This document shows, one piece after another, positions 3,475 to 30,022 of a stretch of 64,000 nucleotides of DNA. Positions within the stretch are counted from its first letter, which is position 1, and each line of letters starts with the position of its first letter. Both the position numbers and the translations under genes were made by a program. The notes beneath the pieces were generated by a model. The model did not search any database. It saw only the letters and a list, made by a program, of their open reading frames with translations, and was not told where the DNA came from. Source of the DNA: a virus; IMG/VR virus record IMGVR_UViG_3300037067_026753; one strand, 5' to 3'.

Positions 3475-4422
3475 TCACCAAGAAGTAATGGAACTTGTTT
3501 GAGCGCCTGTAGAGAAATCGAGAGAAACCTTTGCATGGTCTCCAAAACGAACTAAAATATCAGTATCAGCTAGATTTTGTACAACAGTAATTGATGTTGT
3601 TCTGCCAATATGTTTAGTTCCAGGTTTATTCCAGAATTTTACAGCAGCTGAACTTGCACCATAATTAGTATCTGATGTTCCTTCAAAATCAACGCCAAAA
3701 GTTACAGCTGAATGATACGCAAAGTTACTAAGTGTTTGTCCTGACGCATTGCCATTATCAATTACACCAACAGTAGCTAATTTGATTCCATACGTAATGT
3801 TGTGTGATACTGCTTTATTTCCTCTAGCAAGTACATCAGCCTGTGTTGCATATCCGTTGTTCTCAGAATAAGCACCAGTATTTACTGCAAAACTTTCAAG
3901 TAAATAAATATCACGTGAGTCAAGTAGAGCTACATGTAGATCAGGATTGAATATAGAATTCGGGTATGAAGCATCATTAGTTGTTCCGATAATATGATCC
4001 ATGTTCCATGCATTTACAAAACATTTTTTTGCATAAGTTTTTGAACGAACATGTTGAACACAGGCGTTTTGTTCGTCTCTTGTAGTACCGTAATCGTAAC
4101 CTGCTTCATCAATAAAGATACCATTGACTTGTAATGTATCCCATTGATTGACTTTCGTTTGAAAATCAGCAATGTCTTGATTAGCTGATACATACCCATA
4201 GATTTCCATGTCAGGCTTGATTGCTTTTAGCCTTGCAATAATTATTTGAGTATTGGCATAATCGGGATGTGATGAATCCTGAATGCCGTCACCAAAGACG
4301 CAAATGTCATATTTTGCCATGTCCATGGCAACATTTTCATTGTTCCAGCCGTTTGTAGCACTGTTGAATGAATTTAGATAGCCGTAATAGAACAATACGT
4401 TTTGAGGACGTGCACTAGCCAT
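3475..4422 (-). CDS. putative TIM-barrel glycoside-hydrolase-like protein
   Basis: GIFIDEAGYDY-type motif; weak family assignment. Confidence 0.4.
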   Translation of the reverse strand: MASARPQNVLFYYGYLNSFNSATNGWNNENVAMDMAKYDICVFGDGIQDSSHPDYANTQIIIARLKAIKPDMEIYGYVSANQDIADFQTKVNQWDTLQVNGIFIDEAGYDYGTTRDEQNACVQHVRSKTYAKKCFVNAWNMDHIIGTTNDASYPNSIFNPDLHVALLDSRDIYLLESFAVNTGAYSENNGYATQADVLARGNKAVSHNITYGIKLATVGVIDNGNASGQTLSNFAYHSAVTFGVDFEGTSDTNYGASSAAVKFWNKPGTKHIGRTTSITVVQNLADTDILVRFGDHAKVSLDFSTGAQTSSITSW

Positions 4423-5406: not shown

Positions 5407-5622
5407 CTAGTATCTTCGTCTTCTAGGCTCGCGTTGCTCACGTTCTTCACGCAATTTGCGCCGTTTCGCAATATTCATTTTTCTTTTACGAGTTTCGCTT
5501 GGTTTCTCGTAATGTCTGTATGATTTCAGTTCTGATAGAACACCTGCACGTTCACATGTTTTTATAAATCTCCGTAATGCTTTTTCAAAAATTTCTGTTT
5601 CACGTATGTAGATTCCATTCAT
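5407..5622 (-). CDS. rpsU: ribosomal protein bS21
   Basis: ALRRFIK...YEKPSETRKRK...AKRRKLR matches S21 family; AGGAAC SD. Confidence 0.85.
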   Translation of the reverse strand: MNGIYIRETEIFEKALRRFIKTCERAGVLSELKSYRHYEKPSETRKRKMNIAKRRKLREEREQREPRRRRY

Positions 5623-10565: not shown

Positions 10566-11060
10566 TCACCATGAAGGATTGATTGAAGAAGAATAAAAAG
10601 GACCTTCTTCTATATCAAGAAGTTTTTTGATTTCATTTGAACGCTCTCTTTTACCTTTTTCAAAAGCTTCTACTTTCGACTTTTCAAGGAGAGCATATAC
10701 AGTTTCAACATCAAGTTGCTTTAACACACAAAAATCAATGTAATACTTGAGTTCACTTAATGGACATTTGCTTTCAATCATTGAAAGCAATTTTTTACCT
10801 TCAAATGTTTCTTTGTGGATCTTGCAATTTAAGCCGAAAATGCACTCATGAACCCAAAAACTTGTTTTATTTGAATAAATATCTTCATTACCTTCAATAT
10901 CGAAGTCCTTCATAGAACCAGTACCAAACGTACCGCCTTCGATATTGATAATAACTTCGCGTGTAGAAAGTACATTATTCATAAATAGCTTTAAAAAGAA
11001 TAGAGTATTCTTTGGAAGAAAAGTTCGATTGGGCTTCTTTGCGAGTTTTGCCAATACCAA
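10566..11060 (-). CDS. hypothetical protein
   Basis: ORF. Confidence 0.45.
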   Translation of the reverse strand: MVLAKLAKKPNRTFLPKNTLFFLKLFMNNVLSTREVIINIEGGTFGTGSMKDFDIEGNEDIYSNKTSFWVHECIFGLNCKIHKETFEGKKLLSMIESKCPLSELKYYIDFCVLKQLDVETVYALLEKSKVEAFEKGKRERSNEIKKLLDIEEGPFYSSSINPSW

Positions 11061-18975: not shown

Positions 18976-19917
18976 ATGAAACCAAGTTTTTTTAGACAGA
19001 CACAGTATAGAGAACCAGATAAAATCGAATTGAAAGAAATTCATGGTTACAATTTGTCTGCTATCCAATTGATGCAGGGGTTGGGTTATGCGATTATTGG
19101 GAGAGGAATTAGAAGAGAAATCGAACAACAAAGAATAACCAATGCATTAAAAAATTTGATCGCTATAGATCCAAATAATTCGCAATATAAACTTGCTCTA
19201 CAAGAAGAAGAAAATAAAAGAGATTTCAAAATAACACATTTAATTGGTATGCTGCCAGACAACTACCAATACAAACACTTCGGATGTGATATTTATGTCT
19301 TTTTTCCAAAAACATTGTCACGTACTAGAGTTCTTATTGTTGGGGGCATACATGGAGATGAACCTGCAGGGCCTTTAGGGTTAATGGAGTTTCTAAGACA
19401 ACGAAACTCTAAAGAAATATTAGATAGATTGAGCGTTTCCTTTTTGCCAGTAATGAATGTTTACGGGTATATTCATAACACAAGAGACAATGAAGGAAAT
19501 AAAGATATAAACAGAAATTATGACAATGGTTCGCCTTCAAAAGAAGCACAAGCTATTAAAAACAACAAAGATTTTATTTTCAATTTAGCTTCAAAAGGTT
19601 TTTTGACTTTACATGAAGATATCACGAAAGACAAGTTTTATTTATACACATGCGGCAAAAATCGAAAACTATTTGATTCATTACGTGCTGTGGGCAAAAA
19701 AGCTTTTGGGCTTGCTACCGGTGAAGCAAATGACAAGTATCCGATAGATAACGGATTTGTCAAAGATGTTCTTGATGATGGGTCTTTTGAAAGTTTTCTT
19801 GGGAACAATGGAATTATAGGTGTTACAACAGAAACGCCTACGATAGAGAAAATTGACAAACGGATTGAAACAAATAGATTATTGGTTAATGCTTTTCTCA
19901 GGCATTTTGTTTTATAA
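18976..19917 (+). CDS. M14 zinc carboxypeptidase / AstE-AspA-like
   Basis: VLIVGGIHGDEPAGP. Confidence 0.6.
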   Translation: MKPSFFRQTQYREPDKIELKEIHGYNLSAIQLMQGLGYAIIGRGIRREIEQQRITNALKNLIAIDPNNSQYKLALQEEENKRDFKITHLIGMLPDNYQYKHFGCDIYVFFPKTLSRTRVLIVGGIHGDEPAGPLGLMEFLRQRNSKEILDRLSVSFLPVMNVYGYIHNTRDNEGNKDINRNYDNGSPSKEAQAIKNNKDFIFNLASKGFLTLHEDITKDKFYLYTCGKNRKLFDSLRAVGKKAFGLATGEANDKYPIDNGFVKDVLDDGSFESFLGNNGIIGVTTETPTIEKIDKRIETNRLLVNAFLRHFVL

Positions 19918-20406
19918 CTTGCCTCTTTGCCTCCAACGACAAATTGTTGATTTTGACATACCGTATTTTTTTGCTAATTTAATTATTGTTCCTCTTTTTA
20001 CTGTCCATGAAGAACCAGGTTTTGCGCCACGGACTCTATCTGTTTTGATTTTTCGTTCTGGTAAATCTATGGGTTCAAGGTAGACAAGTGTGTCAGCATA
20101 AGGTCGTGTCCAGCCGGGCACCCAGCGAAATGTTTTTCCACGGATAATTGAGAGAGCGGCTGATTGAGATATGTTATAAAGCTTTCTTGCTTCGGAAGCA
20201 GTAATGCCTTTGGGGACTCTGGCTCTTATTTTTTTGACGTTTGCAATAGATATTTTTGCTGTATTCATTGCCCATTTTGATTTGACGGGAGAGAAATTCG
20301 AGTGAGGAGAAAGGTCGAAAACATTGTTCCAGACAGCAACAGGCCTACAATCAAATTTCCGAGCAATGAAACTAAGAGCGTAGTTTTGCTCGAACATTGA
20401 GCGCAT
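19912..20406 (-). CDS. HTH DNA-binding protein
   Basis: two HTH-like segments incl. MSKSTICRWRQRG. Confidence 0.45.
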   Translation of the reverse strand: MRSMFEQNYALSFIARKFDCRPVAVWNNVFDLSPHSNFSPVKSKWAMNTAKISIANVKKIRARVPKGITASEARKLYNISQSAALSIIRGKTFRWVPGWTRPYADTLVYLEPIDLPERKIKTDRVRGAKPGSSWTVKRGTIIKLAKKYGMSKSTICRWRQRGKL

Positions 20407-20467: not shown

Positions 20468-20746
20468 TCAAGGAATAATCTGAATTTGTTTATATGAACA
20501 AGTATTGCATCTCATATATTTTTTCGTGATACCATTTTTATTCTTTCTAGAAGAACGTACGTGTAATGGTGTTTTGCATTTAGGACAACACGAAGATTGA
20601 GTGGGGAAAATCTTTGTGATTATTTTTTCTGTCAGTTTCTGAGCAAGATGGTGTCCGTTTCTGACAACAGTTCTATTACGTTCCAGGTCTTCACAAATCG
20701 TAATACATCCTTCATAGATTTGATTTCTTAAATAGGAAGTTTTCAT
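20468..20746 (-). CDS. zinc-ribbon protein
   Basis: CCPKC...CNTC. Confidence 0.4.
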   Translation of the reverse strand: MKTSYLRNQIYEGCITICEDLERNRTVVRNGHHLAQKLTEKIITKIFPTQSSCCPKCKTPLHVRSSRKNKNGITKKYMRCNTCSYKQIQIIP

Positions 20747-21162
20747 AGGACTCGGACATTTCTATAAGAAGTTTTGTTTTTCTTGTGATTATTACAAGGA
20801 TGACAAGCAATTGTACAGTTGCTTTTATCCCATTTCGAACCACCAAGCGACAGAGCAACTATATGATCAATAGTGGCAAGTGTCTTCAACTGAGCTTTGT
20901 CACATGGGTCTAGAATTTCACGAACTAGATGTTCTGCACCGCAATACTGACAAATTAGTTCACCATGTATTGCTTCAAATTCGTCAAAAATTTCATTTCT
21001 AAAAGTTTCCCATTCTTCCATTACTATTTTTTGCATCTGATCTCTCAAAAAAAGATAAGACGCTCTTGATTGTACAAAAGGTTCTTCAACAAAAACTTTA
21101 TCAGCATTAGTACTCAAATACAACATATAGTTAATAACAAACGGGTTAGAATATTCTGCCAT
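20743..21162 (-). CDS. HNH endonuclease
   Basis: CQYCG...HIVALSLGG...CHPCNNHK. Confidence 0.75.
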   Translation of the reverse strand: MAEYSNPFVINYMLYLSTNADKVFVEEPFVQSRASYLFLRDQMQKIVMEEWETFRNEIFDEFEAIHGELICQYCGAEHLVREILDPCDKAQLKTLATIDHIVALSLGGSKWDKSNCTIACHPCNNHKKNKTSYRNVRVL

Positions 21163-21229
21163 TAGATAGGGTTATTTTAAGCACATTAGCATAGGTGCTA
21201 ATGAATTCATATAGACATGGTATCAATAA

Positions 21230-21266
21230 TATGCTAGACGGTCCGCGAGCTTAGTCTTTCCAAAAC
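21230..21266. repeat. copy A of ~37-bp direct repeat (TATGCTAGACGGTCCGCGAGCTTAGTCTTTCCAAAAC)
   Basis: 34/37 identical to 28096-28133; spans stop codon of gene 21251..23812. Confidence 0.7.
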
Positions 21267-23812
21267 ATTTTAGGTGTAATAATCACACCATTTGACCATC
21301 CCCAACTATTTTCTCTTCTTTCACTCGTAAATTTTCTGTGGTCTGTTTCGTATAAAAAATCACTATAAGGAGATTCAGACCAATGTACTCCATAAATACT
21401 ACCCTCAATAAGCAATGCAGTATGTTGCCCGTATTCCGCTATCAAAAAAGCAAATGGGAGTTTCATTACTTTTTCTAATTTCTCTTGGTCTTGTTTAGAA
21501 AATTTTGTCGGGTTCCTGATAGGTTTTTTATCGACATCATACATTGTAGGTTTATAGTTGATTACCAAATCTTCAACGGGCAAAATCGGTTTTAAAATAT
21601 TAGTGCCATATATCTTTTCTTTAGATGCCATTTCATAAATGAGTTTAAGTATGTCTGCGTCTTTACCATAAAAGTTGTTCGAATCGGGCGTATAAAAAAG
21701 AGCTACCCAGTTTAATTTGAGTAATTCAAAAGCAAGTTCATGTCCAGTTACGCTTGCAAAAGCTTTTTTACATTTTTTCCAAGTTTCACCAAAACAGGTT
21801 TTATTAAATCCAATTTCCATGACTTCTAAGATGAAAGTTATGCAGTCGGTTTTCTTTAACTTGTATTGTTTTTTATGTACTTCAAACTTGTTTTTTATTG
21901 ATTGGTCCCAGGTACCTTTGAATCTATCAGCACTTAAACTAAAGCCACCCCTTCTAGCAGCTTCTAAATATTCTGCTTCATTTTTAAATGAGTATGGATA
22001 GAGACCTCCATAATGAGTCCCGCATGATCTTTCAAGAACATTTTTATAATGATTACCTATAATGAAAATTACTGCATCTCTAAGATTATCAATTAAAATC
22101 TTATTGCAATCTATTGAATGAAGTGGATTATCTTCTTTTGAATTAAATGCCATATCCCCATCTAACTCGATTACGTATCTTATCGTGTAGACTGCAAAAG
22201 CTTTATTTTCGGGCTCAAATGGCATGATTATTACAAATTTCTCTTTTTTATCTGAGTCAAAAGTCAAGTAAAAATGAGAGGGTTTGTATTTGAGGGGCTC
22301 TAAATATTTATTACCTTCTTTATCTTGTGTGTCGGGTGCGGGTAGCTGATGTTGAAATTCGTCAATACGTACAACTTCGCTAAAACAATAAGAATCTTTA
22401 CTTTTTTCTTTTATAATTACTTCAAATTTAGCAATTATTTGCGGGTTTGAATCTTCATAAATATTCACTATACATTTTTTGCCGACCAACAATGTGTCAG
22501 TTTTTAAGTAATCGACGTGTATTTGTACGTTGCCACCGCCAAAGGTGTCCCCATCAATAATAAAATTGTTTTTCCTGAACTCTATTTTTTGAATTTCTTT
22601 GTCGTTTTGTTGCCATTCAACTGGTGAAGTATAATTTTCACCTTTATATTTTACAGAAAGAGTATAAGAATCTTTTGAGACTTTCCATAAAACATCACCT
22701 TTGTTGTCGGTTCTTGAAGAATATTTTTTCCCTTTTTCATTACTTATAATACAAATTATGTCTTTTTCAAAATTACCACTATTATAGAAACCTAAATTGA
22801 CGTGTACATAACCAAAAGGCAATGCAAGTGTATCGCTTTTAAAATTGTCATTTGATGCAGCTCTATTTTCAATTACTGCAAAATATTCGACAGCATCTCC
22901 TTTTATATAATTTGTTGGAGTAGACAGTTTGAAATCTGTTGTCCAGCTATTTTCAGCAATAAGACGTCCTTCTGCTATTTGACTTAGATCTTCGGTTTTG
23001 CCTTTGTACACACAAAACAATTTTGCAAAAACTTTATTTTCTGTGTTGTCTAATCTCCTGTTGTTCTTAAAAGAAAATTTGATTTTAATTCTTTTATTGA
23101 AAACAATGTCTTGACTGTCATCGAACTCACCTGAAATAAATTTTAGTTCTAGCGGTGCTATTTGAGCAACTGGTTCTTCTGGGTCTTCTTCTTTGAAGTA
23201 ATCATCGTCATATAGTTCACCGAAAGCATCATTCCACACATCTGTATAACTTAAATGCCCTTTAAAATAGAGCCAGTTTATTTTTCTGAATTTGAATTGA
23301 ACTTCTTCAAGGTGGTTATATCTTTCGAACCGTGGGTCTTTGACATCAGGCATTGTGTGATGAACTTTATGAAGACGCACATTTTCTAAGGTCATCCTGA
23401 AATATTCTTCTTGTTTTCCTTTTTTGCTGCTATATTGGTACCACCTGATCTCAATTTTACTTAAAAAAGCACCAGTTTTCATGTAATTCAAGAGATAAGG
23501 GCTTATTTGGTCAATATTTTTTACAAACATCATTGGTTCATGTTTTCTCACAAAATCTTGACCATGGAGCAAAGCATAGAAATAATCTTTGGAAACTGTA
23601 TAAACATGATGAGTGAATTCATAAATGTAACAACCAGAAAGGCCAGTAAATTCATCTTTTAATTGGTCCAAAGACGAAAGGCCTGTAAATTTATCTTTTA
23701 ATTGCTTCAAAGACGAAATTGCATAAATAGAATCTAGCTCTTTGATTTTTACTGGCCCAGGTATTACGTTCCCTTTAGAATCGTAAAATATAACTATAGG
23801 AGCAATTGCCAT
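21251..23812 (-). CDS. large hypothetical protein (853 aa) with N-terminal tandem 13-aa repeats
   Basis: long ORF; ends FWKD* inside the repeat. Confidence 0.6.
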   Translation of the reverse strand: MAIAPIVIFYDSKGNVIPGPVKIKELDSIYAISSLKQLKDKFTGLSSLDQLKDEFTGLSGCYIYEFTHHVYTVSKDYFYALLHGQDFVRKHEPMMFVKNIDQISPYLLNYMKTGAFLSKIEIRWYQYSSKKGKQEEYFRMTLENVRLHKVHHTMPDVKDPRFERYNHLEEVQFKFRKINWLYFKGHLSYTDVWNDAFGELYDDDYFKEEDPEEPVAQIAPLELKFISGEFDDSQDIVFNKRIKIKFSFKNNRRLDNTENKVFAKLFCVYKGKTEDLSQIAEGRLIAENSWTTDFKLSTPTNYIKGDAVEYFAVIENRAASNDNFKSDTLALPFGYVHVNLGFYNSGNFEKDIICIISNEKGKKYSSRTDNKGDVLWKVSKDSYTLSVKYKGENYTSPVEWQQNDKEIQKIEFRKNNFIIDGDTFGGGNVQIHVDYLKTDTLLVGKKCIVNIYEDSNPQIIAKFEVIIKEKSKDSYCFSEVVRIDEFQHQLPAPDTQDKEGNKYLEPLKYKPSHFYLTFDSDKKEKFVIIMPFEPENKAFAVYTIRYVIELDGDMAFNSKEDNPLHSIDCNKILIDNLRDAVIFIIGNHYKNVLERSCGTHYGGLYPYSFKNEAEYLEAARRGGFSLSADRFKGTWDQSIKNKFEVHKKQYKLKKTDCITFILEVMEIGFNKTCFGETWKKCKKAFASVTGHELAFELLKLNWVALFYTPDSNNFYGKDADILKLIYEMASKEKIYGTNILKPILPVEDLVINYKPTMYDVDKKPIRNPTKFSKQDQEKLEKVMKLPFAFLIAEYGQHTALLIEGSIYGVHWSESPYSDFLYETDHRKFTSERRENSWGWSNGVIITPKMFWKD
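23643..23718. repeat. 2 x ~38-bp intragenic tandem repeat
   Basis: encodes LKQLKDKFTGLSS/LDQLKDEFTGLSG. Confidence 0.5.
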
Positions 23813-23815
23813 ATA

Positions 23816-26116
23816 TTAATCCTTCATAAGACAACATCTAAAACCTGTTTCATCATTTGCACCTTCAGGCATACGCATATCTCTGAAAGTTACATTGACT
23901 TTGTCGAGCTCAGTATAAAAACTCCCACCCCTAAGTATTATCCCAGTATTGTACTGGTCTTTTTCGTGGAAAGGATCAACCAAGGGAGTAGCAGACTCGA
24001 CATATTTATAAAACCAGTCATTTGTCCATTCTTCAACATTCCCAAACATATCAAATAATCCATATCCATTACTATTTTTCTGAGCAATTTTTTGTGGTGC
24101 ATTACAGTCATCAATGTACCAAGCTATTGCTTTCAACTGGTCTTCTCCAAAATAAAGAACACTCGAATTGCCCTTTGCGGCAAATTCCCACTCAGCTTCT
24201 GTAGGAAGCCTGAAACCTTTTTTATTAAAATCAATTTGGAGATTGAGCAGGATTAATTTAGAACTTTCAGGAATCTCTCCAAAAGTCCCTTGCATTCCAT
24301 TATAAGAGTAAACTGTATCAGTACTTCCAGCAGCTTTTGTTCGAGCATTGCAATATAGAATTGCTTCATACCAGTTGATACCGAAAGCAGGAAGATTGTC
24401 ATCCAATGGATATGATGACCACATGTCTGGTGTTTTATAAATGCTTGGGTATGCTACCGACATGATTGCAGCAAATGATTTTTGTGTTACTTCCGTCTTA
24501 TCATACCATAAATCGTGAGTCAACATTACAGGGTGCATTGGCTTTTCAGTACTGTATGCAGAATCACCTCTGCCTCCCATATCAAAAACTTTATCTTTTG
24601 AATTGATGAAAACCATGTTAGCAGGATCTTCCCATTGAGCATTAAATGTCACATTACCTGCACCCAATTTATATGTATCATCAGGTTTGTACAAAGTTTT
24701 CGTACTGTCTATCCAACCTTTGAATGTATATCCAGTCTTGACTAGAGAAGAAACTGGTATTTTTACTAGAGTTTCATATTCATAAACATTTTCTTCAGGA
24801 ATTTGTCCAAAATCGTAGTCTGAGCAAATAAATGTTACCTTATAGCTATTTTTTTCCCATTTAGCATATAATGTAAGGTTATCAACGATTTTCACCTGTG
24901 ATTCAGAAAAATAATCTATTCCTTTACCCAAACTATCTGTATTCCAGCACAAAAATCTATGGCCTTTTTTCGACAACAGATTGTTTGAAGAAATTTTTGT
25001 TTCGGTTCCTTCTACAAGTCTTGTTTCACTGGGCACTGCGCCTTCAGTACCATAACTTTTGTAGGTTATTGTAAAAACTGGTTTTGCTTCCCATTTAGCG
25101 TATAGAACTAAAGAATTGGCTACAATTATTTTGTCGCCTACAAGATAGTCGGTTCCCTTCCCTGTACTGTCTGTATTCCAGCACAAGAAATTATAACCCG
25201 ATTTAGAAACAGTGGCATTTGAAATTTTTGTTTCACTCCCCCTTAGGTATTCTTTTATTTCAGGTAATGTCCCATCTATTCCACTTGTCCGTTTATATGT
25301 TATTGAAAACATGGGAATTGATTGCCATGTGGCCACCAATGTCAAGTTTGTGTCTATTTTAAATTTTTCTCCAGGTTTCAAAATTGTGTCTTTTTGAACT
25401 ATAAACCACCCTGAAAAATCACAATCTTTTTTAGATGCTAAGGTGTCCATAATACTAACATCTTGTCCTGTTAGATAATTGTTAGTGTCAACAGGAACAA
25501 TACGGCTATCATCTTTATAGACAACCATGAACTTGACAATTATTGGTTCTACGGTATCTTGTGTAACTACGGTGTCCTGCCTGGTAGTATCTTGGGCAAT
25601 AGTGTCTTCCGTGGTAGTATCTTGAGCAATAGTATCACGTGTGGTAGTGTCCTGGGCAATGGTATCCAGAGTAGTAGTGTCTTTAACAACGGTCGTCGTG
25701 CAAGGTATGTCCAAAGTGTCCAAGGTTACAACAGGTGTTGTGTCGGCATCTTTTTTGAAATTTGCAAAGATATAAAGACTGTCATAATAAATTGCGTTTC
25801 CACCGCTATATCGTGTACTTATCCTTATAATATTTTCACCTTCAACCAAGTCTTTTAAAATCAAGGTGCTTTCAGGCGACCATTCGTCAGACCAGTCACC
25901 ATTATTGATCCTGAACTTAAATCTGCTCTGTGGTTTATTTCCAAAGACAGAAAGAACTGCACTATCTACTTTAACCGTATCACCATTGTTTATTGAATTT
26001 TGGCTTAACAAGATGACAGGCGGATCGTAACTTGTTCCTTTTTCATCAAAAGGATTGTCATTATTAGCAAAATTGCAAGAAAGCAATAACACTAACAATG
26101 CTAACAATCTGTACAT
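23816..26116 (-). CDS. secreted protein with Listeria-Bacteroides repeats and C-terminal FGE-sulfatase (SUMF1-like) domain
   Basis: signal peptide; ...GYTFKGW..YKLGAGNVTFNAQWE repeats; GFRLPTEAEWEFAAKG...GNVEEWT...RGGSF. Confidence 0.7.
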   Translation of the reverse strand: MYRLLALLVLLLSCNFANNDNPFDEKGTSYDPPVILLSQNSINNGDTVKVDSAVLSVFGNKPQSRFKFRINNGDWSDEWSPESTLILKDLVEGENIIRISTRYSGGNAIYYDSLYIFANFKKDADTTPVVTLDTLDIPCTTTVVKDTTTLDTIAQDTTTRDTIAQDTTTEDTIAQDTTRQDTVVTQDTVEPIIVKFMVVYKDDSRIVPVDTNNYLTGQDVSIMDTLASKKDCDFSGWFIVQKDTILKPGEKFKIDTNLTLVATWQSIPMFSITYKRTSGIDGTLPEIKEYLRGSETKISNATVSKSGYNFLCWNTDSTGKGTDYLVGDKIIVANSLVLYAKWEAKPVFTITYKSYGTEGAVPSETRLVEGTETKISSNNLLSKKGHRFLCWNTDSLGKGIDYFSESQVKIVDNLTLYAKWEKNSYKVTFICSDYDFGQIPEENVYEYETLVKIPVSSLVKTGYTFKGWIDSTKTLYKPDDTYKLGAGNVTFNAQWEDPANMVFINSKDKVFDMGGRGDSAYSTEKPMHPVMLTHDLWYDKTEVTQKSFAAIMSVAYPSIYKTPDMWSSYPLDDNLPAFGINWYEAILYCNARTKAAGSTDTVYSYNGMQGTFGEIPESSKLILLNLQIDFNKKGFRLPTEAEWEFAAKGNSSVLYFGEDQLKAIAWYIDDCNAPQKIAQKNSNGYGLFDMFGNVEEWTNDWFYKYVESATPLVDPFHEKDQYNTGIILRGGSFYTELDKVNVTFRDMRMPEGANDETGFRCCLMKD
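25571..25700. repeat. ~4 x 30-bp imperfect tandem repeat inside CDS
   Basis: encodes (D/Q)TIAQDTTT(R/E) repeats. Confidence 0.55.
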
Positions 26117-26127
26117 AACTCCTCCTT

Positions 26128-26991
26128 TTAAAAATCTATTACTAAAGAAAAACTCATTTCTTCGGATGTCGAATTTAAAACGATTTTATCTTTTATCTTT
26201 TTCCCTTTGTCAAAGATGGTTATACCAATACCTGCAACAAAGAAGACAGAACCTAAAATCCCAGAGGTTTTAGTCCACTGAAGTAGATTGTTTCTGTCAT
26301 TTTTTAATGCATCAATATCAGCCTGCTTGTCAGCAGCTTTATAGCGTTGATACTTGTTTTTTGTTGCTATCAAAAGACCACCAGAAGCGACAAAAGACGT
26401 AGCACTAATTACAAACACGCTGTTTCTCAAACTATTGTCTTTTTCTTTGACGGAATCTTGTATTTCGGGTTCTTTAGATTTATATGTGTAAGGGTAATCG
26501 TCTTGAACAGGTTGTATTTGGCCATTTATTGTAAAATGGAATTGTCCATTGTTTCTAAAAACACCTTTATCTACTCTGATATCAACTTTTTGAGATTTGA
26601 TACCATAAACAGAGTAACAAAGCCTAAAATTTGATAAATGCACTTTATACGGACTTCTTTTAATATCTATTCCATTCCAGTCAAATAAACTTGGGAAAGT
26701 ATCACTTTTGGGGTTGTACAAGTTATCACTTATTGACGTAAATACAACAGGAGTTGTTACTTCCCCAGAAACTACTAAGGGTCCTCTTACAATTATGCCA
26801 GTAAAAGGTTTAAAAAACAGAACACAACCCTCTTTAAAAATTGTTGGTTTTTTACCGATAATTTGGATTGTGTTCAGGACAATATAAGGATTACCTGTAG
26901 AATCAAATGTCTTCTCTTTAATGTCACCTGACAAATGAGTTTCCGAAACACTTATATTGAATAAAACAAAAATTATCATGAAGAATTTCAT
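26128..26991 (-). CDS. secreted/membrane hypothetical protein
   Basis: signal peptide, C-terminal TM helices. Confidence 0.5.
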   Translation of the reverse strand: MKFFMIIFVLFNISVSETHLSGDIKEKTFDSTGNPYIVLNTIQIIGKKPTIFKEGCVLFFKPFTGIIVRGPLVVSGEVTTPVVFTSISDNLYNPKSDTFPSLFDWNGIDIKRSPYKVHLSNFRLCYSVYGIKSQKVDIRVDKGVFRNNGQFHFTINGQIQPVQDDYPYTYKSKEPEIQDSVKEKDNSLRNSVFVISATSFVASGGLLIATKNKYQRYKAADKQADIDALKNDRNNLLQWTKTSGILGSVFFVAGIGITIFDKGKKIKDKIVLNSTSEEMSFSLVIDF

Positions 26992-27674
26992 TTATAACTC
27001 TCCGATCTAATCCAATTGTCAACCATCGGATCTGAAAATAATTTACTGATTACTCTATATTTTGAATATCTAAAAGGATTGTTTGTAGTAATACTTTCGG
27101 ACATAACTCCTGTATCAGGAAAATAGTAATTAGAATGTATAAAACTTACACTGTTATTTTGAACATAGAGAAAACCAACATGACAATCTAAACCTGTCAA
27201 ATAAAGACCTTCACCTTGTTTTAACAGATAGTTTTCGACATCTGCAAGCGGTTGGTTTTTAAACCGTTTTACCTTATAAGGAGAAAATTTTAAAATCATT
27301 TCTTCAGAAGCAAGTTGTGCCCATTTTATTGGCACTCTAAAACCTACGTCATTTAAAATCGTTGTAACAAAATAACCACAAGCTATTTTTCCCTGCCTGG
27401 GAATTCTTGTAGTACCATAAAAATCCCAAGGTGTTCCATACCAATAAGGAATAAGACTATCTCGTATCATAGTCAACAAATACTTACGGGTTTGTTTGAT
27501 TATTTGCTGTCGGATGGTATCGTTTGCCTGAGTGTATATACAGTTAATTGAGTATCTGTCAAGTTTAATTCTATTAACCATTTTGGTATATTGTTCTGCT
27601 ATACCATTCGAAAAACATATATTTGTGGCTATTAATATGATTATGAAGTAGATATGTAGTTTCATAATGTACAA
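26988..27674 (-). CDS. secreted hypothetical protein (possible Cys-His papain-like/NlpC-like)
   Basis: signal peptide; IACGYF...DCHVGFLYV. Confidence 0.4.
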   Translation of the reverse strand: MYIMKLHIYFIIILIATNICFSNGIAEQYTKMVNRIKLDRYSINCIYTQANDTIRQQIIKQTRKYLLTMIRDSLIPYWYGTPWDFYGTTRIPRQGKIACGYFVTTILNDVGFRVPIKWAQLASEEMILKFSPYKVKRFKNQPLADVENYLLKQGEGLYLTGLDCHVGFLYVQNNSVSFIHSNYYFPDTGVMSESITTNNPFRYSKYRVISKLFSDPMVDNWIRSESYK

Positions 27675-27680
27675 AATATT

Positions 27681-27974
27681 CTATAGTTTACCGGGTTTCC
27701 GCTGTTTTCTGGTGTGTATTATGTTTAAATAATCTTGTATAGCTCGAATTTGTTCCAAACATTTCCTGCATGTCACCCTGCCGCCATCAATTTTCGACAT
27801 TTCATGAGAATTGCGATTTGAAGGATCTTTTTCTGTGCAATCACCATCCCAGGCATCCCCACATAACATATATTCAGAATTCGTCGTCGATGCCATGTGA
27901 ACTCCGTTATTATTTTTCCACAATTCCATTTTGACTTTCACACCGAGCTTCAGAGTCCGGCGAATTGAAAACAA
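27681..27974 (-). CDS. small Cys-rich protein
   Basis: CGDAWDGDC...CRKC. Confidence 0.4.
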   Translation of the reverse strand: MFSIRRTLKLGVKVKMELWKNNNGVHMASTTNSEYMLCGDAWDGDCTEKDPSNRNSHEMSKIDGGRVTCRKCLEQIRAIQDYLNIIHTRKQRKPGKL

Positions 27975-28095
27975 TTTTCACATTTCATTCATTCCCTTAT
28001 ATCTAAAATTATACACACTCTGCCAATTAAATACAGGTATTATAAGCAAATTAATGGGTAGAGTTAATAAAACTATATAAGCTATATAGGAGTAG

Positions 28096-28133
28096 TATGC
28101 TAGTCGGTCAGCGAGCTTGGTCTTTCCAAAAAC
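28096..28133. repeat. copy B of ~37-bp direct repeat
   Basis: TATGCTAGTCGGTCAGCGAGCTTGGTCTTTCCAAAAAC; spans stop of gene 28108..28824. Confidence 0.7.
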
Positions 28134-28824
28134 AATAAAGGCATTTGTGTGGGCATCTGTCTCTATGCTTCAGTAATTCTGTTTTCAAAGAAATACAGGC
28201 ACATGTTTTGGGCCGTTGACGCGCGAAACTGTGTTTAAATCCCTGGCCCAAAATTTCACAATCTTTTGCTGACACACAACCTGTACACTTGAAATCGGGC
28301 TCACCACAAATTTCAACTGTTGTTTTGGCTTCTCTCTGTATAGCGAGCAAAGCCTTTTGCCGAAACTCAAGTGGTGCATGGAACGTATCCCAGGGAAGCG
28401 AAATATCTTCTTGTTGGAATCTATATTTTACATGTTCGTAATAATCAATAAAAGAAACTCTAATTCTAAATCTCCCTATTTCTTGAGCCAACCGTACAAC
28501 ATTGACAGCTGTTTCAATTCCTCTTTCCGTTGGAATTACTGGATCGACTCTGATTGTCACTCTTTCTTGTCCCAAAACATCTTTTAGACATTGAACACCT
28601 TTCATTGCTTCTTCAACAGGCATTACATTTGGTTCGAGAATAGTACTACCATACCCTGTTATTGTTGCATGAGCAATAACATTGGGCTTGTCAAACAATT
28701 TTATATTATCACACAATTTGCATGGGTTTTTAGAAAGCAATATTGCTGGTTTTCCTTTTCGAACCCAGTCAAACCAGTCCGTATCTAAACCTGCATCACC
28801 GCGTTCTGTTATTCCTATCGCCAT
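28108..28824 (-). CDS. radical-SAM-like protein with C-terminal CX3CX2C
   Basis: DRCPHKCLYCFW near C-terminus; ends FWKDQAR*. Confidence 0.5.
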   Translation of the reverse strand: MAIGITERGDAGLDTDWFDWVRKGKPAILLSKNPCKLCDNIKLFDKPNVIAHATITGYGSTILEPNVMPVEEAMKGVQCLKDVLGQERVTIRVDPVIPTERGIETAVNVVRLAQEIGRFRIRVSFIDYYEHVKYRFQQEDISLPWDTFHAPLEFRQKALLAIQREAKTTVEICGEPDFKCTGCVSAKDCEILGQGFKHSFARQRPKTCACISLKTELLKHRDRCPHKCLYCFWKDQAR

Positions 28825-29258: not shown

Positions 29259-29744
29259 TCAAATTTTTTCCTGCTCTGGCTCTGGGAAATCATACACATA
29301 CGTATCGACATTCATGTGTTTCAGGATTATGGGTTCGATTTCTTCCCAGGTTCCACCTGCTAAACCGCAACCTATCCTGGGCATATGAACCGTAATTTTC
29401 TCACCCTCGGTTGCCTGGTATACTTGTTTCAAGCACATATTGAGTGCTTTCAAATGCAAGGGTTTGAAATTGTTTTCTTTTGTACCATATCCGTCCTGGG
29501 CAATCATGTTTACGACGCTGATGTTGCTGTCAACCGTTACAATTTGTATTTTGCCAAGACGGAAACCTTCTGCTTCTCTCGACCAAAGACGGTATGAAGC
29601 TTCAGGGCCTCTGCCCAGGTTCTTGGTCACTGCTACAACGAAACCTGCACCCCACCCGCCCTTGTTATTGCATATATGGACAATATAAGCCGGTGTTTGT
29701 ACCGGCTTAGTGGCATCCCCTGTAAGGTATTTTAATTCAGCCAT
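29259..29744 (-). CDS. macro domain (ADP-ribose-binding/processing) protein
   Basis: YIVHICNNKGGWGAGFVVAV... fold-typical G-rich loop. Confidence 0.75.
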   Translation of the reverse strand: MAELKYLTGDATKPVQTPAYIVHICNNKGGWGAGFVVAVTKNLGRGPEASYRLWSREAEGFRLGKIQIVTVDSNISVVNMIAQDGYGTKENNFKPLHLKALNMCLKQVYQATEGEKITVHMPRIGCGLAGGTWEEIEPIILKHMNVDTYVYDFPEPEQEKI

Positions 29745-29836
29745 TGTTGTCCTTTCGATGTTGTTTCAAATACAGATAAGCAAGATGCATTCTGAATTTC
29801 TTCCCCCTGCGTTCTTCTTTCTTTATATCGAGTTTT

Positions 29837-29986
29837 TTACCTCCGTTCGGCCAAACGGACAGGGTCATGAATACCACAATAATGAATTCCATTTCTGCAT
29901 ACTTTTGCATTATTAGTACAATGCTTATACCTCGGGAAATTCATTTTTGTGATCAGATATTCAGCTTCACATTTTGTGTTTTCCAT
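29837..29986 (-). CDS. unannotated 49-aa Cys-rich ORF
   Basis: MENTKCEAEY...CTNNAKVCRNGIHYCGIH; below ORF-track cutoff; no SD. Confidence 0.25.
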   Translation of the reverse strand: MENTKCEAEYLITKMNFPRYKHCTNNAKVCRNGIHYCGIHDPVRLAERR

Positions 29987-30022
29987 ATTTATTATATCGA
30001 AAGAACAAACAAAACTGCCAAA

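What the first reader, a model, noticed from the sequence alone, without database searches (positions are those of the whole stretch)
21230..28133. ~37-bp direct repeat at the 3' ends of two unrelated genes, flanking a 6.9-kb module of large secreted proteins
TATGCTAGACGGTCCGCGAGCTTAGTCTTTCCAAAAC (21230-21266) and TATGCTAGTCGGTCAGCGAGCTTGGTCTTTCCAAAAAC (28096-28133) are 34/37 identical and in the same orientation. Each encodes the shared C-terminus FWKD of its gene. An A/G difference turns the TAA stop of one into CAA, extending the other by QAR. The repeats are G+C-rich islands in AT-rich DNA. Between them lie five genes (853-aa repeat protein, FGE-domain protein, three secreted/Cys-rich proteins). 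Possible explanations are att-like recombination sites, a cassette boundary for C-terminal or module exchange, or a conserved 3' regulatory/homing-endonuclease target element.
Basis: seen in the sequence. Interest (0 to 1): 0.6.

Follow-up and report, generated by a model that had tools for sequence, protein, structure and literature searches.

The report
Recombination scar flanking phage gene block
The two repeats are copies of the tail end of one gene plus the spacer behind it, left when a block of accessory genes was spliced into an insertion hot spot of a probable giant-phage genome; this is an ordinary footprint of phage genome mosaicism, not a new kind of element.

Summary
The repeat is real, but it is about 116-118 nt long, not 37 (window 21150-21265 = R1; 28014-28131 = R2; genes on the minus strand). 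R2 is the native 3' end of a short-form DUF1848 gene, whose family normally ends ...CxYC[YF]WK(D), plus its downstream spacer up to a conserved promoter-like TTGGCA box. R1 is an ectopic copy of that segment, joined in frame to the end of an 853-aa Hcp-fusion gene. Relatives of that gene also end ...TPKxFW but then carry other tails, so the joint lies in the microhomology TTTTGG(A). R1 therefore donates the codons KD, the stop and the non-coding stretch upstream of an HNH endonuclease gene.

Relatives show the DUF1848-to-HTH-gene spacer empty (L101), holding only an HNH cassette (L011), or holding the block in partly deleted form (L013). The same block occurs elsewhere without any R. I found no recombinase, no third copy, no RNA structure and no Rfam match. 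The copies share at most 12 identical bases in a row.

Verdict: this is the fossil scar of illegitimate or unequal recombination at a hyperplastic site, possibly helped by the endonuclease. One point stays open: a 21-nt G+C-rich stretch is better conserved than its flanks.

The parts
28014..28131 (-). R2: the native copy. It holds the last four codons (FWKD) of DUF1848, the tail QAR-TGA, the G+C-rich stretch and the AT-rich spacer, and ends at the TTGGCA box of a conserved promoter-like element.
   Evidence: Searches give the extent. Searches show that [YF]WK(D) is the usual C-terminus of phage DUF1848. Orthologous spacers in L011, L013 and L014 hit the R profile. TTGGCA-N17/18-GATAT(T/A) is conserved.
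21150..21265 (-). R1: the ectopic copy of the same segment, fused in frame to the 3' end of the Hcp-fusion gene. It supplies codons K-D, the TAA stop (21251-21253) and the non-coding stretch upstream of the HNH gene. The first ATG of the HNH ORF (21160-21162) lies at its end.
   Evidence: Hcp-fusion homologues end FW plus unrelated tails. The R profile is absent next to this gene block or the HNH gene in other contexts (L012, L010, L100).
21230..21250 (-). G+C-rich 21-nt element in R1 (GCTCGCGGACCGTCTAGCATA). It is non-coding here.
28096..28116 (-). G+C-rich 21-nt element in R2 (GCTCGCTGACCGACTAGCATA). It overlaps the QAR-stop of DUF1848.
28108..28824 (-). Short-form DUF1848 gene (238 aa), a backbone gene and the source of the repeated segment.
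   Evidence: Pfam PF08902, E=1e-22, matched to the end of the profile. One search found 277 homologues, and those examined are about 220-300 aa long and end CLYC[YF]W....
27681..27896 (-). Small 71-aa ORF (97 aa if read from the TTG at 27974), first gene after R2. It is absent from L013.
26988..27674 (-). 228-aa protein with a hydrophobic N-terminus that looks like a signal sequence. It is the first gene of the conserved four-gene block.
   Evidence: It is 57% identical to L012 and 63-77% identical to L013. No family match.
26128..26991 (-). 287-aa protein with hydrophobic stretches at the N-terminus and near the C-terminus (read from the sequence; no predictor was run).
   Evidence: It is 45% identical to L012.
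23816..26116 (-). 766-aa protein with an N-terminus that looks like a lipoprotein signal (LLSC). It carries Listeria-Bacteroides repeats and an FGE-sulfatase domain.
   Evidence: Pfam PF03781 and PF09479.
21251..23812 (-). 853-aa Hcp-fusion protein: an N-terminal T6SS Hcp domain plus a long extension. Its C-terminal tail is a chimera: FW is native, KD-stop comes from R1.
   Evidence: Pfam PF05638. Alignment with P0009-P0011. The L012 paralogue ends ...TPKIFWKNN....
20743..21162 (-). Free-standing HNH endonuclease gene directly downstream of R1. The family's native start is MLYLST, which is the ATG at 21126.
   Evidence: Pfam PF01844, PHROGs, alignment A5. Homologues sit in other contexts (L010, L100, a JGI 8-kb contig).
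20468..20746 (-). 92-aa zinc-ribbon ORF (weak Ogr/Delta-like match). It lies upstream of the HNH cassette in L100 and downstream of the HNH gene here.
19912..20406 (-). 164-aa HTH protein, the backbone gene that directly follows DUF1848 in the relative L101.
   Evidence: 64% identity to the L101 187-aa gene and 78% to L011.

Best explanation
The two repeats are paralogous copies of one ~116-118-nt segment. That segment is the last four codons of the DUF1848 gene plus its downstream spacer, up to the -35-like box of the next promoter-like element.

R2 sits in its native place. R1 arose when the 3' end of the Hcp-fusion gene was joined by illegitimate, microhomology-mediated recombination at TTTTGG(A) to the 3' end of a DUF1848 gene. 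That second DUF1848 gene belonged to another genome copy or a close relative that carried DUF1848-spacer-HNH. 'FW' is native to both proteins, which is what provided the microhomology. The new joint lies upstream of where the first genome left the spacer, so the spacer segment is now present twice and brackets the 6.7-kb accessory block.

My preferred version, which is inferred and not shown, is a one-sided double-strand-break repair or unequal crossover in the hyperplastic DUF1848-to-HTH spacer. The HTH side would have paired by real homology and the Hcp-fusion side by microhomology. This event deleted the native tail of the Hcp-fusion gene, and the paralogue genes that follow it in relatives are likewise absent here. 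The neighbouring HNH endonuclease may have made the break.

Today the repeats are a passive scar. They are too diverged to recombine efficiently (73% identity, at most 12 identical bases in a row). R1 merely supplies K-D-stop to the Hcp-fusion gene and the upstream non-coding region of the HNH gene.
For: 1. The homology crosses the coding/non-coding boundary and runs about 116 nt.
2. [YF]WK(D) is the normal C-terminus of phage DUF1848 (26 homologues; IMG/VR loci). The downstream spacers of the orthologues L011, L013 and L014 match the R profile. R2 is therefore native.
3. Full-length homologues of the 853-aa protein end TPKAFWNTEYPEEE, TPKAFWDEEYFEEK and TPRFFWENEV, and a paralogue ends TPKIFWKNN.... 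FW is therefore native to that family, but KD-stop plus the following 100 nt are not.
4. States of the same backbone site: L101 has DUF1848-336 nt-HTH. L011 has DUF1848-R-85aa-HNH-HTH without the block. L013 has R2-block with a 5.4-kb internal deletion, ending ...FWKD-TAA.
5. The block 225/228aa-287aa-FGE-HcpF occurs in L012 and in a JGI 85-kb contig. There it is followed by 465-aa and 148-aa genes, and neither DUF1848 nor HNH is among the called genes. The R profile has no hit in L012, the only one of the two with DNA.
6. No recombinase. No third copy. No stable RNA fold (z = -0.1 and +0.4). No Rfam or tRNA hit.
7. Mosaic breakpoints coincide with the joint. L013 (about 80% identical to the window) ends exactly 31 nt after its last mismatch. 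L007, from the same sample, starts 25 nt before that end and is 99.97% identical to the window for 3.6 kb.
Against: The first 36 nt are better conserved than the rest: 33/36 against 56/81, Fisher p=0.009. This falls to p=0.17 once the 15 coding nt are left out. That difference could reflect selection or gene conversion rather than neutral decay.

R1 and R2 resemble each other more than either resembles the orthologous spacers of L013 or L011 (z=6.1 against 0.4-1.6). This needs either a donor close to this lineage or concerted evolution.

L011 is not a precise empty site, because an 85-aa ORF lies between R and HNH. The order of events cannot be resolved: the block may have been inserted into DUF1848-HNH, or HNH may have been brought to the block. 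Only five independent versions of R exist. The full 424-kb genome could not be scanned for further copies.
Confidence: 0.72

Rival explanations
1. The 21-nt G+C-rich element, with or without the FWKD codons, is a functional cis element kept by selection at both positions. It could be the recognition or cleavage site, or an immune variant of that site, for the adjacent HNH homing endonuclease. It could also be a protein-binding site upstream of the spacer promoter. The duplication would then be maintained or created because of that function. This is compatible with a recombinational origin.
For: The element is conserved in R1 (non-coding there), R2, L014 and L013. It is also conserved in L011 across a 1-nt indel that changes the reading frame, while the next ~80 nt have drifted. 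It is absent from the HNH-less relative L101. The HNH family shows presence/absence and positional polymorphism typical of free-standing homing endonucleases. There is a weak dyad, GCT[C/A]G-N8-CTAGC.
Against: Only five sequences from one clade are available. The excess conservation is not significant once the coding bases are removed (p=0.17). There are no further copies and no RNA structure. The left half of the dyad is missing in L011.
Confidence: 0.15
2. The repeats are a PeSL-like mobile regulatory cassette (promoter plus terminator) of the kind that mediates modular shuffling and mini-circle formation in T4-type phages.
For: Sigma-70-like hexamers lie at homologous positions in both copies: TTAGCA-16-TAAAAT at 21201-21174 and TTAACT-17-TATAAT at 28067-28039. 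The repeats flank a block that is present or absent between relatives. The PeSL concept is described in PMC2839356.
Against: Only two copies occur in 64 kb, and none elsewhere in 1.1 Mb of related loci. No terminator-like stem-loop with a T-run was found in R. Promoter-like hits in the region are not more frequent than in shuffles (27 against 33.5). The hexamers are not conserved in L013 (direct reading of the sequence). The element begins inside a coding sequence.
Confidence: 0.06
3. The repeats are attL and attR of an integrative cassette moved by site-specific recombination.
For: They are direct repeats in the same orientation bracketing a discrete 6.7-kb gene block. A relative has a single copy.
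Against: No integrase, recombinase or transposase lies in or next to the block. The cores are not identical (3 of 36 differ, longest identical run 12 nt). The homology tails off over 118 nt. The block occurs in other genomes without R. All near-identical contigs carry the block.
Confidence: 0.04
4. The similarity is due to chance, or to convergence of two genes that both end in FWKD.
For: FW is native to both protein families.
Against: Identity continues 21 nt past the stop codon of the 853-aa gene, and similarity continues about 80 nt further. Zero matches are expected by chance.
Confidence: 0.01

Closest known systems
Mosaic junctions of phage genomes made by illegitimate or homeologous recombination (the Hendrix/Hatfull model is cited from my own knowledge; experimental discussion in PMC2327257, seen, title and abstract only)
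   Same: A novel joint lies at a few bases of microhomology close to a gene boundary. An accessory block is present or absent between relatives. An ORF end is chimeric. The duplicated flank has diverged.
   Different: Here the joint duplicated about 116 nt of flank, so it looks like a pair of att sites. The microhomology comes from a coincidentally shared Phe-Trp at two unrelated C-termini.
PeSL promoter-terminator cassettes of T4-type phages (PMC2839356, abstract read; PMC4122927, listed)
   Same: Short repeated intergenic sequences flank non-essential gene blocks in hyperplastic regions. Promoter-like hexamers lie inside the repeat.
   Different: There are only two copies and no terminator stem-loop. 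The repeat starts inside a coding sequence, and no family of such cassettes was seen.
Intronless homing of free-standing homing endonuclease genes, with co-conversion of flanking DNA (T4 seg/mob genes; my own knowledge)
   Same: A free-standing HNH gene lies in an intergenic hot spot. It shows presence/absence and positional polymorphism among relatives. A sharp change in identity occurs at the joint next to it.
   Different: No cleavage site is known. The observed product is an ectopic, microhomology-based joint, not a clean homing event.
attL/attR of integrated elements
   Same: Direct repeats bracket a discrete block.
   Different: There is no recombinase and the cores are not identical. 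The homology is long and decaying, and no excision products were seen.

Membership tests
Segmental duplication at an illegitimate-recombination joint (phage mosaic junction) | One copy lies in its native context, as shown by orthologues. | tested here: met
   R2 follows DUF1848 just as in L011, L013 and L014. [YF]WK(D) is the usual DUF1848 C-terminus.
Segmental duplication at an illegitimate-recombination joint (phage mosaic junction) | The second copy is joined to unrelated sequence at a short microhomology, giving a chimeric ORF end. | tested here: met
   The homology starts sharply at TTTTGG. Hcp-fusion homologues share FW but carry different tails.
Segmental duplication at an illegitimate-recombination joint (phage mosaic junction) | The homology ignores functional boundaries, running from coding through the stop codon into the spacer. 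| tested here: met
   115 nt at 73% identity across the stop codon and the intergenic region.
Segmental duplication at an illegitimate-recombination joint (phage mosaic junction) | Relatives exist that lack the intervening block at the same backbone site. | tested here: met
   L101 has an empty spacer and L011 holds only the HNH cassette.
att sites of a site-specific integrative element | An identical core sequence in both copies. | tested here: not met
   33 of 36 identical; the longest identical run is 12 nt.
att sites of a site-specific integrative element | A cognate integrase or recombinase encoded in or beside the element. | tested here: not met
   Pfam and PHROGs scans of all ORFs from 19.9 to 28.8 kb find only an HNH nuclease.
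att sites of a site-specific integrative element | Excised, circular or precise empty-site forms in populations. | tested here: inconclusive
   None occurs among the contigs that carry the identical DUF1848 or HNH protein. Raw reads could not be examined.
PeSL-type mobile regulatory cassette | A strong sigma-70-like promoter inside the repeat. | tested here: inconclusive
   Hexamers matching 9-10 of 12 positions lie at homologous places. Such matches are no more frequent than in shuffles, and the hexamers are not conserved in L013.
PeSL-type mobile regulatory cassette | A stem-loop terminator inside the repeat. | tested here: not met
   No terminator-like site was found in R. Folding z-scores are -0.1 and +0.4.
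PeSL-type mobile regulatory cassette | Many copies spread through the hyperplastic regions. | tested here: not met
   There are two copies in 64 kb, and a profile search finds no third. The whole genome was not available.
Homing-endonuclease target or co-conversion tract | A free-standing endonuclease gene lies adjacent and is polymorphic in presence and position among relatives. | tested here: met
   HNH at 20743-21162. It is absent in L101 and sits in other contexts in L010, L100 and a JGI contig.
Homing-endonuclease target or co-conversion tract | The endonuclease cleaves the endonuclease-less allele at or near the repeat. | not testable with these tools
   This needs a biochemical assay.

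The most novel reading that the evidence does not exclude
The conserved 21-nt G+C-rich element behind the DUF1848 stop is the recognition site, or an immune variant of it, of the neighbouring HNH homing endonuclease. R1 would then be the product of an endonuclease-induced break repaired on one side by microhomology. If so, free-standing homing endonucleases in huge phages would not only spread themselves. They would also weld foreign cargo blocks, here a T6SS-like Hcp-effector module, into the genome and rewrite the ends of neighbouring genes.
Probability: 0.12. Interest if true: 0.45.

Novelty: new member of a known kind. Interest (0 to 1): 0.2.

Why it matters
This is a clean, base-level example of how gene blocks are stitched into a very large, probably phage, genome. 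The donor segment, the microhomology, the chimeric gene end and several alternative states of the same hot spot can all be read from metagenomic relatives. It also serves as a caution: a pair of G+C-rich direct repeats around a gene block can look like att sites while being a decayed duplication. It does not reveal a new mechanism or system. The only open point of wider interest is whether the adjacent homing endonuclease drove the event and whether the conserved 21-nt element is its site.

Tried and rejected
1. Exact and degenerate pattern scans for the core found nothing related. Scans of IMG/VR gave no hit. Of the two scans of JGI metagenome contigs, the first used a mis-set gap and found nothing. 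The second gave 4 unrelated high-GC chance hits. The scan of GTDB genomes gave 1 hit that was not examined and is presumably chance. These collections evidently do not hold the source contigs, so genome-wide copy number stays unknown.

2. Protein-seeded searches of IMG/VR with the single DUF1848 and Hcp-fusion proteins found no close relatives. Megablast against INPHARED phages found nothing.

3. Structured RNA, terminator, tRNA-fragment and Rfam explanations were rejected.

4. A truncated or interrupted DUF1848 gene, as would follow from an intron or an insertion inside the gene, was rejected. The Pfam match reaches the end of the profile, and the short form of about 220-300 aa is the norm among the homologues examined.

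5. A remnant of a second HNH copy, or of the 85-aa gene, behind R2 was rejected. There is no similarity.

6. I tested whether R1 derives from an L011-like lineage. It does not: R1 is closest to the window's own R2.

7. I tested whether the 164-aa HTH protein is the DNA-binding half of a split homing endonuclease. This is unlikely: it is a backbone gene that directly follows DUF1848 in the HNH-less relative L101.

8. The C-terminal domain of the Hcp fusion and the 228-, 287- and 71-aa proteins gave no Pfam match. PHROGs matched none of the larger three and gave only two weak unknown-function matches (E about 0.002) for the 71-aa ORF. The Hcp-fusion C-terminal part gave no PDB sequence match. 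No structure prediction was run.
Full report
OBSERVATION

All genes concerned lie on the minus strand. In register the shared block is 21230-21265 vs 28096-28131, with 33 of 36 bases identical. A degenerate 33-nt pattern with up to 3 mismatches finds only these two sites, against 0.00 expected from shuffles.

The 853-aa ORF (21251-23812) ends ...KMFWKD-TAA. The 238-aa ORF (28108-28824) ends ...CLYCFWKDQAR-TGA. The A/G difference on the plus strand converts TAA to CAA.

The same two copies occur in independent assemblies from ENA, NCBI, JGI and Logan that are 99.8-100% identical to the window. This is therefore not an assembly artefact.

THE REPEAT IS LONGER THAN REPORTED

Read on the gene strand, the similarity starts sharply at TTTTGG (the Phe-Trp codons). 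It continues through the stop codon, the G+C-rich stretch and about 80 nt of AT-rich spacer, to ...A(T)TGGCAGA.
- blastn aligns 115 nt at 73% identity, 21155-21265 vs 28019-28131 (alignment).
- The extra ~80 nt, aligned as an anchored global alignment, score 21. The null from 4000 native AT-rich windows has mean -7 and maximum 9, and none reached 21.
- In an unanchored search the extension alone would not be significant (nhmmer E=6.6).
- A profile of the two copies finds no third copy in the window. In 1.1 Mb of fetched loci it finds nothing except directly behind DUF1848 genes of the close clade.

WHICH COPY IS NATIVE

The 238-aa protein is a complete short-form DUF1848; its Pfam match runs to the end of the profile. 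One search found 277 homologues. Those examined are about 220-300 aa long, many lie on 100-590-kb contigs, and they end ...CxYC[YF]W[KR]..., often exactly [YF]WKD (IMG/VR loci). FWKD is therefore native to DUF1848.

The spacers behind the closest orthologues are recognisably the same segment. These are L014 (92% protein identity), L013 (82%) and L011 (76%). They share a promoter-like TTGGCA-N17/18-GATAT(T/A) about 107 nt after TTTTGG. This motif is also present in the more distant L101.

The 853-aa protein carries an N-terminal T6SS Hcp domain plus a long extension. Its full-length homologues (40-48% identity) end TPKAFWNTEYPEEE, TPKAFWDEEYFEEK and TPRFFWENEV. A stand-alone paralogue of the C-terminal domain ends TPKIFWKNN.... 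Phe-Trp is therefore native to this family too. The codons KD, the stop and the following 100 nt are not.

R2 is thus the original. R1 is an ectopic copy fused in frame at the microhomology TTTTGG(A).

THE SITE IS AN INSERTION HOT SPOT

Relatives show four states of the same backbone interval, which is collinear from R2K, HPr and macro through DUF1848 to the OB/HD and NAPRTase genes.
- L101: DUF1848, a 336-nt spacer, then the HTH gene. That gene is 64% identical to window 19912-20406.
- L011: DUF1848, R, an 85-aa ORF, HNH (75% identical), then HTH, with no 6.7-kb block.
- Window: DUF1848, R2, the 71-aa ORF, the 228-aa and 287-aa genes, the FGE-sulfatase gene and the Hcp-fusion gene, then R1, HNH, the 92-aa ORF and HTH.
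- L013: like the window, but a 5.4-kb deletion fuses the 228-aa gene to Hcp-fusion codon ~733. It still ends ...FWKD-TAA.

In L100 the HNH cassette (85aa-HNH) sits behind the 92-aa zinc-ribbon gene. In L010 and in a JGI contig, HNH homologues lie in yet other contexts.

Conversely, the block 225/228aa-287aa-FGE-Hcp-fusion occurs in L012 and in a JGI 85-kb contig. There it is followed by 465-aa and 148-aa genes, and neither DUF1848 nor HNH is among the called genes. The R profile has no hit in L012, the only one of the two with DNA. The window has no separate homologue of the 465-aa and 148-aa genes.

MECHANISM

No integrase, recombinase or transposase lies in or beside the block. R has no stable RNA fold (z = -0.1 and +0.4), no terminator, and no Rfam or tRNA match. 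The two copies share at most 12 identical bases in a row. The contigs that carry the identical DUF1848 or HNH protein all keep the block or break inside it.

The best reading is a fossil scar. The 3' end of the Hcp-fusion gene was joined by microhomology-mediated (illegitimate or unequal) recombination to the 3' end of a DUF1848 gene. That gene belonged to a second genome copy or a close relative that carried DUF1848-spacer-HNH. This duplicated the ~116-nt segment and replaced the native tail of the Hcp-fusion gene; the paralogue genes that follow it in relatives are absent here.

A one-sided break repair would give exactly this architecture, with homology on the HTH side and microhomology on the Hcp-fusion side. 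The neighbouring HNH endonuclease is a plausible source of the break. Both of these points are inferences, not shown.

One observation is consistent with recombination at the joint. L013 is about 80% identical to the window and ends exactly 31 nt after its last mismatch. This is the expected end of a k=31 unitig where two paths merge. L007, from the same sample, begins 25 nt before that end and is 99.97% identical to the window for 3.6 kb. A second sharp mosaic boundary lies 18 nt upstream of the DUF1848 start in L004.

WHAT REMAINS UNEXPLAINED

The first 36 nt are better conserved than the rest: 33/36 against 56/81, Fisher p=0.009. The p-value rises to 0.17 when the 15 coding nt are left out.

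The 21-nt G+C-rich stretch is kept in R1, where it is non-coding. It is also kept in L011 across a frame-shifting indel, and it is missing from the HNH-less L101.

R1 and R2 resemble each other more than either resembles the orthologous spacers. This suggests a donor close to this lineage, or gene conversion.

A cis function therefore cannot be excluded, for example as an endonuclease site or a protein-binding site. With five sequences and no assay it remains a hypothesis.

COMPARISON WITH KNOWN THINGS

The structure is an instance of phage genome mosaicism by illegitimate or homeologous recombination (discussion in PMC2327257). It resembles the PeSL cassettes of T4-type phages in flanking a variable block in a hyperplastic region (PMC2839356). 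It fails the PeSL criteria of a terminator stem-loop and of many copies. It fails the att-site criteria of an identical core and a recombinase. The adjacency and polymorphism of a free-standing HNH gene fit intronless homing, but cleavage was not testable.

CONTEXT

The window is most likely part of a huge phage.
- The longest contig carrying these exact proteins is 424 kb.
- Genes are almost all on one strand, and many ORFs have no family match.
- It encodes an NAD-dependent ligase, topoisomerase I, a CCA-adding enzyme, NAPRTase, a second HNH and a lytic transglycosylase-like protein.
- No capsid or terminase gene lies in this window.
- One NCBI MAG that carries the locus is labelled Candidatus Nanoarchaeia, probably through mis-binning.

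VERDICT

The att-site reading is rejected. The 'cassette boundary' reading is supported in the sense of a recombination scar. This is ordinary in kind and modest in interest.

Noticed in passing
window 21251-23812 (-); L012 10001-13919: The 853-aa protein is an Hcp (T6SS tube) domain fused to a ~650-aa extension. Its C-terminal ~440 aa have no Pfam or PDB sequence match. In L012 a stand-alone 465-aa paralogue of that domain follows the fusion gene. The family shares the C-terminal motif TPKxFW. The four-gene block (228aa-287aa-FGE-sulfatase protein-Hcp fusion) is conserved in several large contigs that look like huge-phage genomes.
   Followed up: partly
L013 3830-4882: This is a deletion variant of the block. 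The end of the 228-aa gene, itself frameshifted, is joined directly to Hcp-fusion codon ~733, removing about 5.4 kb. The block therefore appears dispensable.
   Followed up: partly
window 28842; L004 1-1451: In GCA_028717785.1 the sequence is 99.8% identical to the window from 28842 down to 10746. Upstream it switches abruptly to other genes (GIY-YIG endonuclease, nucleoside deoxyribosyltransferase). This is a second mosaic boundary, 18 nt before the DUF1848 start codon.
   Followed up: partly
window 28014-27990 (-); L011 ~2255-2285; L013 ~3792-3820; L101 ~10781-10810: A promoter-like motif, TTGGCA-N17/18-GATAT(T/A), is conserved in the spacer behind DUF1848 in four lineages. The R1/R2 homology ends just after its TGGCA, and R1 carries a degenerate ATGGCA-N17-TGTTAT.
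   Followed up: partly
window 29259-32917 (-): An 874-aa protein has major-vault-protein shoulder and repeat domains. Next to it lie an HPr phosphocarrier homologue and a macro-domain protein, an unusual set for a phage.
   Followed up: no
window 25572-25661 and 23637-23714: There are in-frame tandem DNA repeats inside genes: three 30-nt units in the FGE-sulfatase protein gene and two 39-nt units near the 5' end of the Hcp-fusion gene. The FGE gene varies in length between near-identical contigs (766 vs 682 aa).
   Followed up: no
window 59868-60764 (-): A second free-standing HNH endonuclease gene lies next to the topoisomerase I gene. Relatives also carry GIY-YIG genes. The genome seems rich in homing-endonuclease-like genes.
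   Followed up: no
window ~5464-5622 (-): A homologue of ribosomal protein S21 is present (75% identity to the L101 gene annotated PF01165).
   Followed up: no
L002/L004 (GCA_028717785.1, JAQUND010000026.1): The public MAG holding this locus is labelled 'Candidatus Nanoarchaeia archaeon'. Its gene content is bacterial-type (OmpA, Hcp, HPr, NAD-dependent ligase, lipoprotein-like N-termini) and phage-like, so the contig is probably mis-binned.
   Followed up: no
window 21126-21162 (-): The HNH ORF's first ATG (21162) lies inside R1. Homologues start 12 codons later at MLYLST (the ATG at 21126). The annotated N-terminal extension MAEYSNPFVINY is therefore probably not native.
   Followed up: partly
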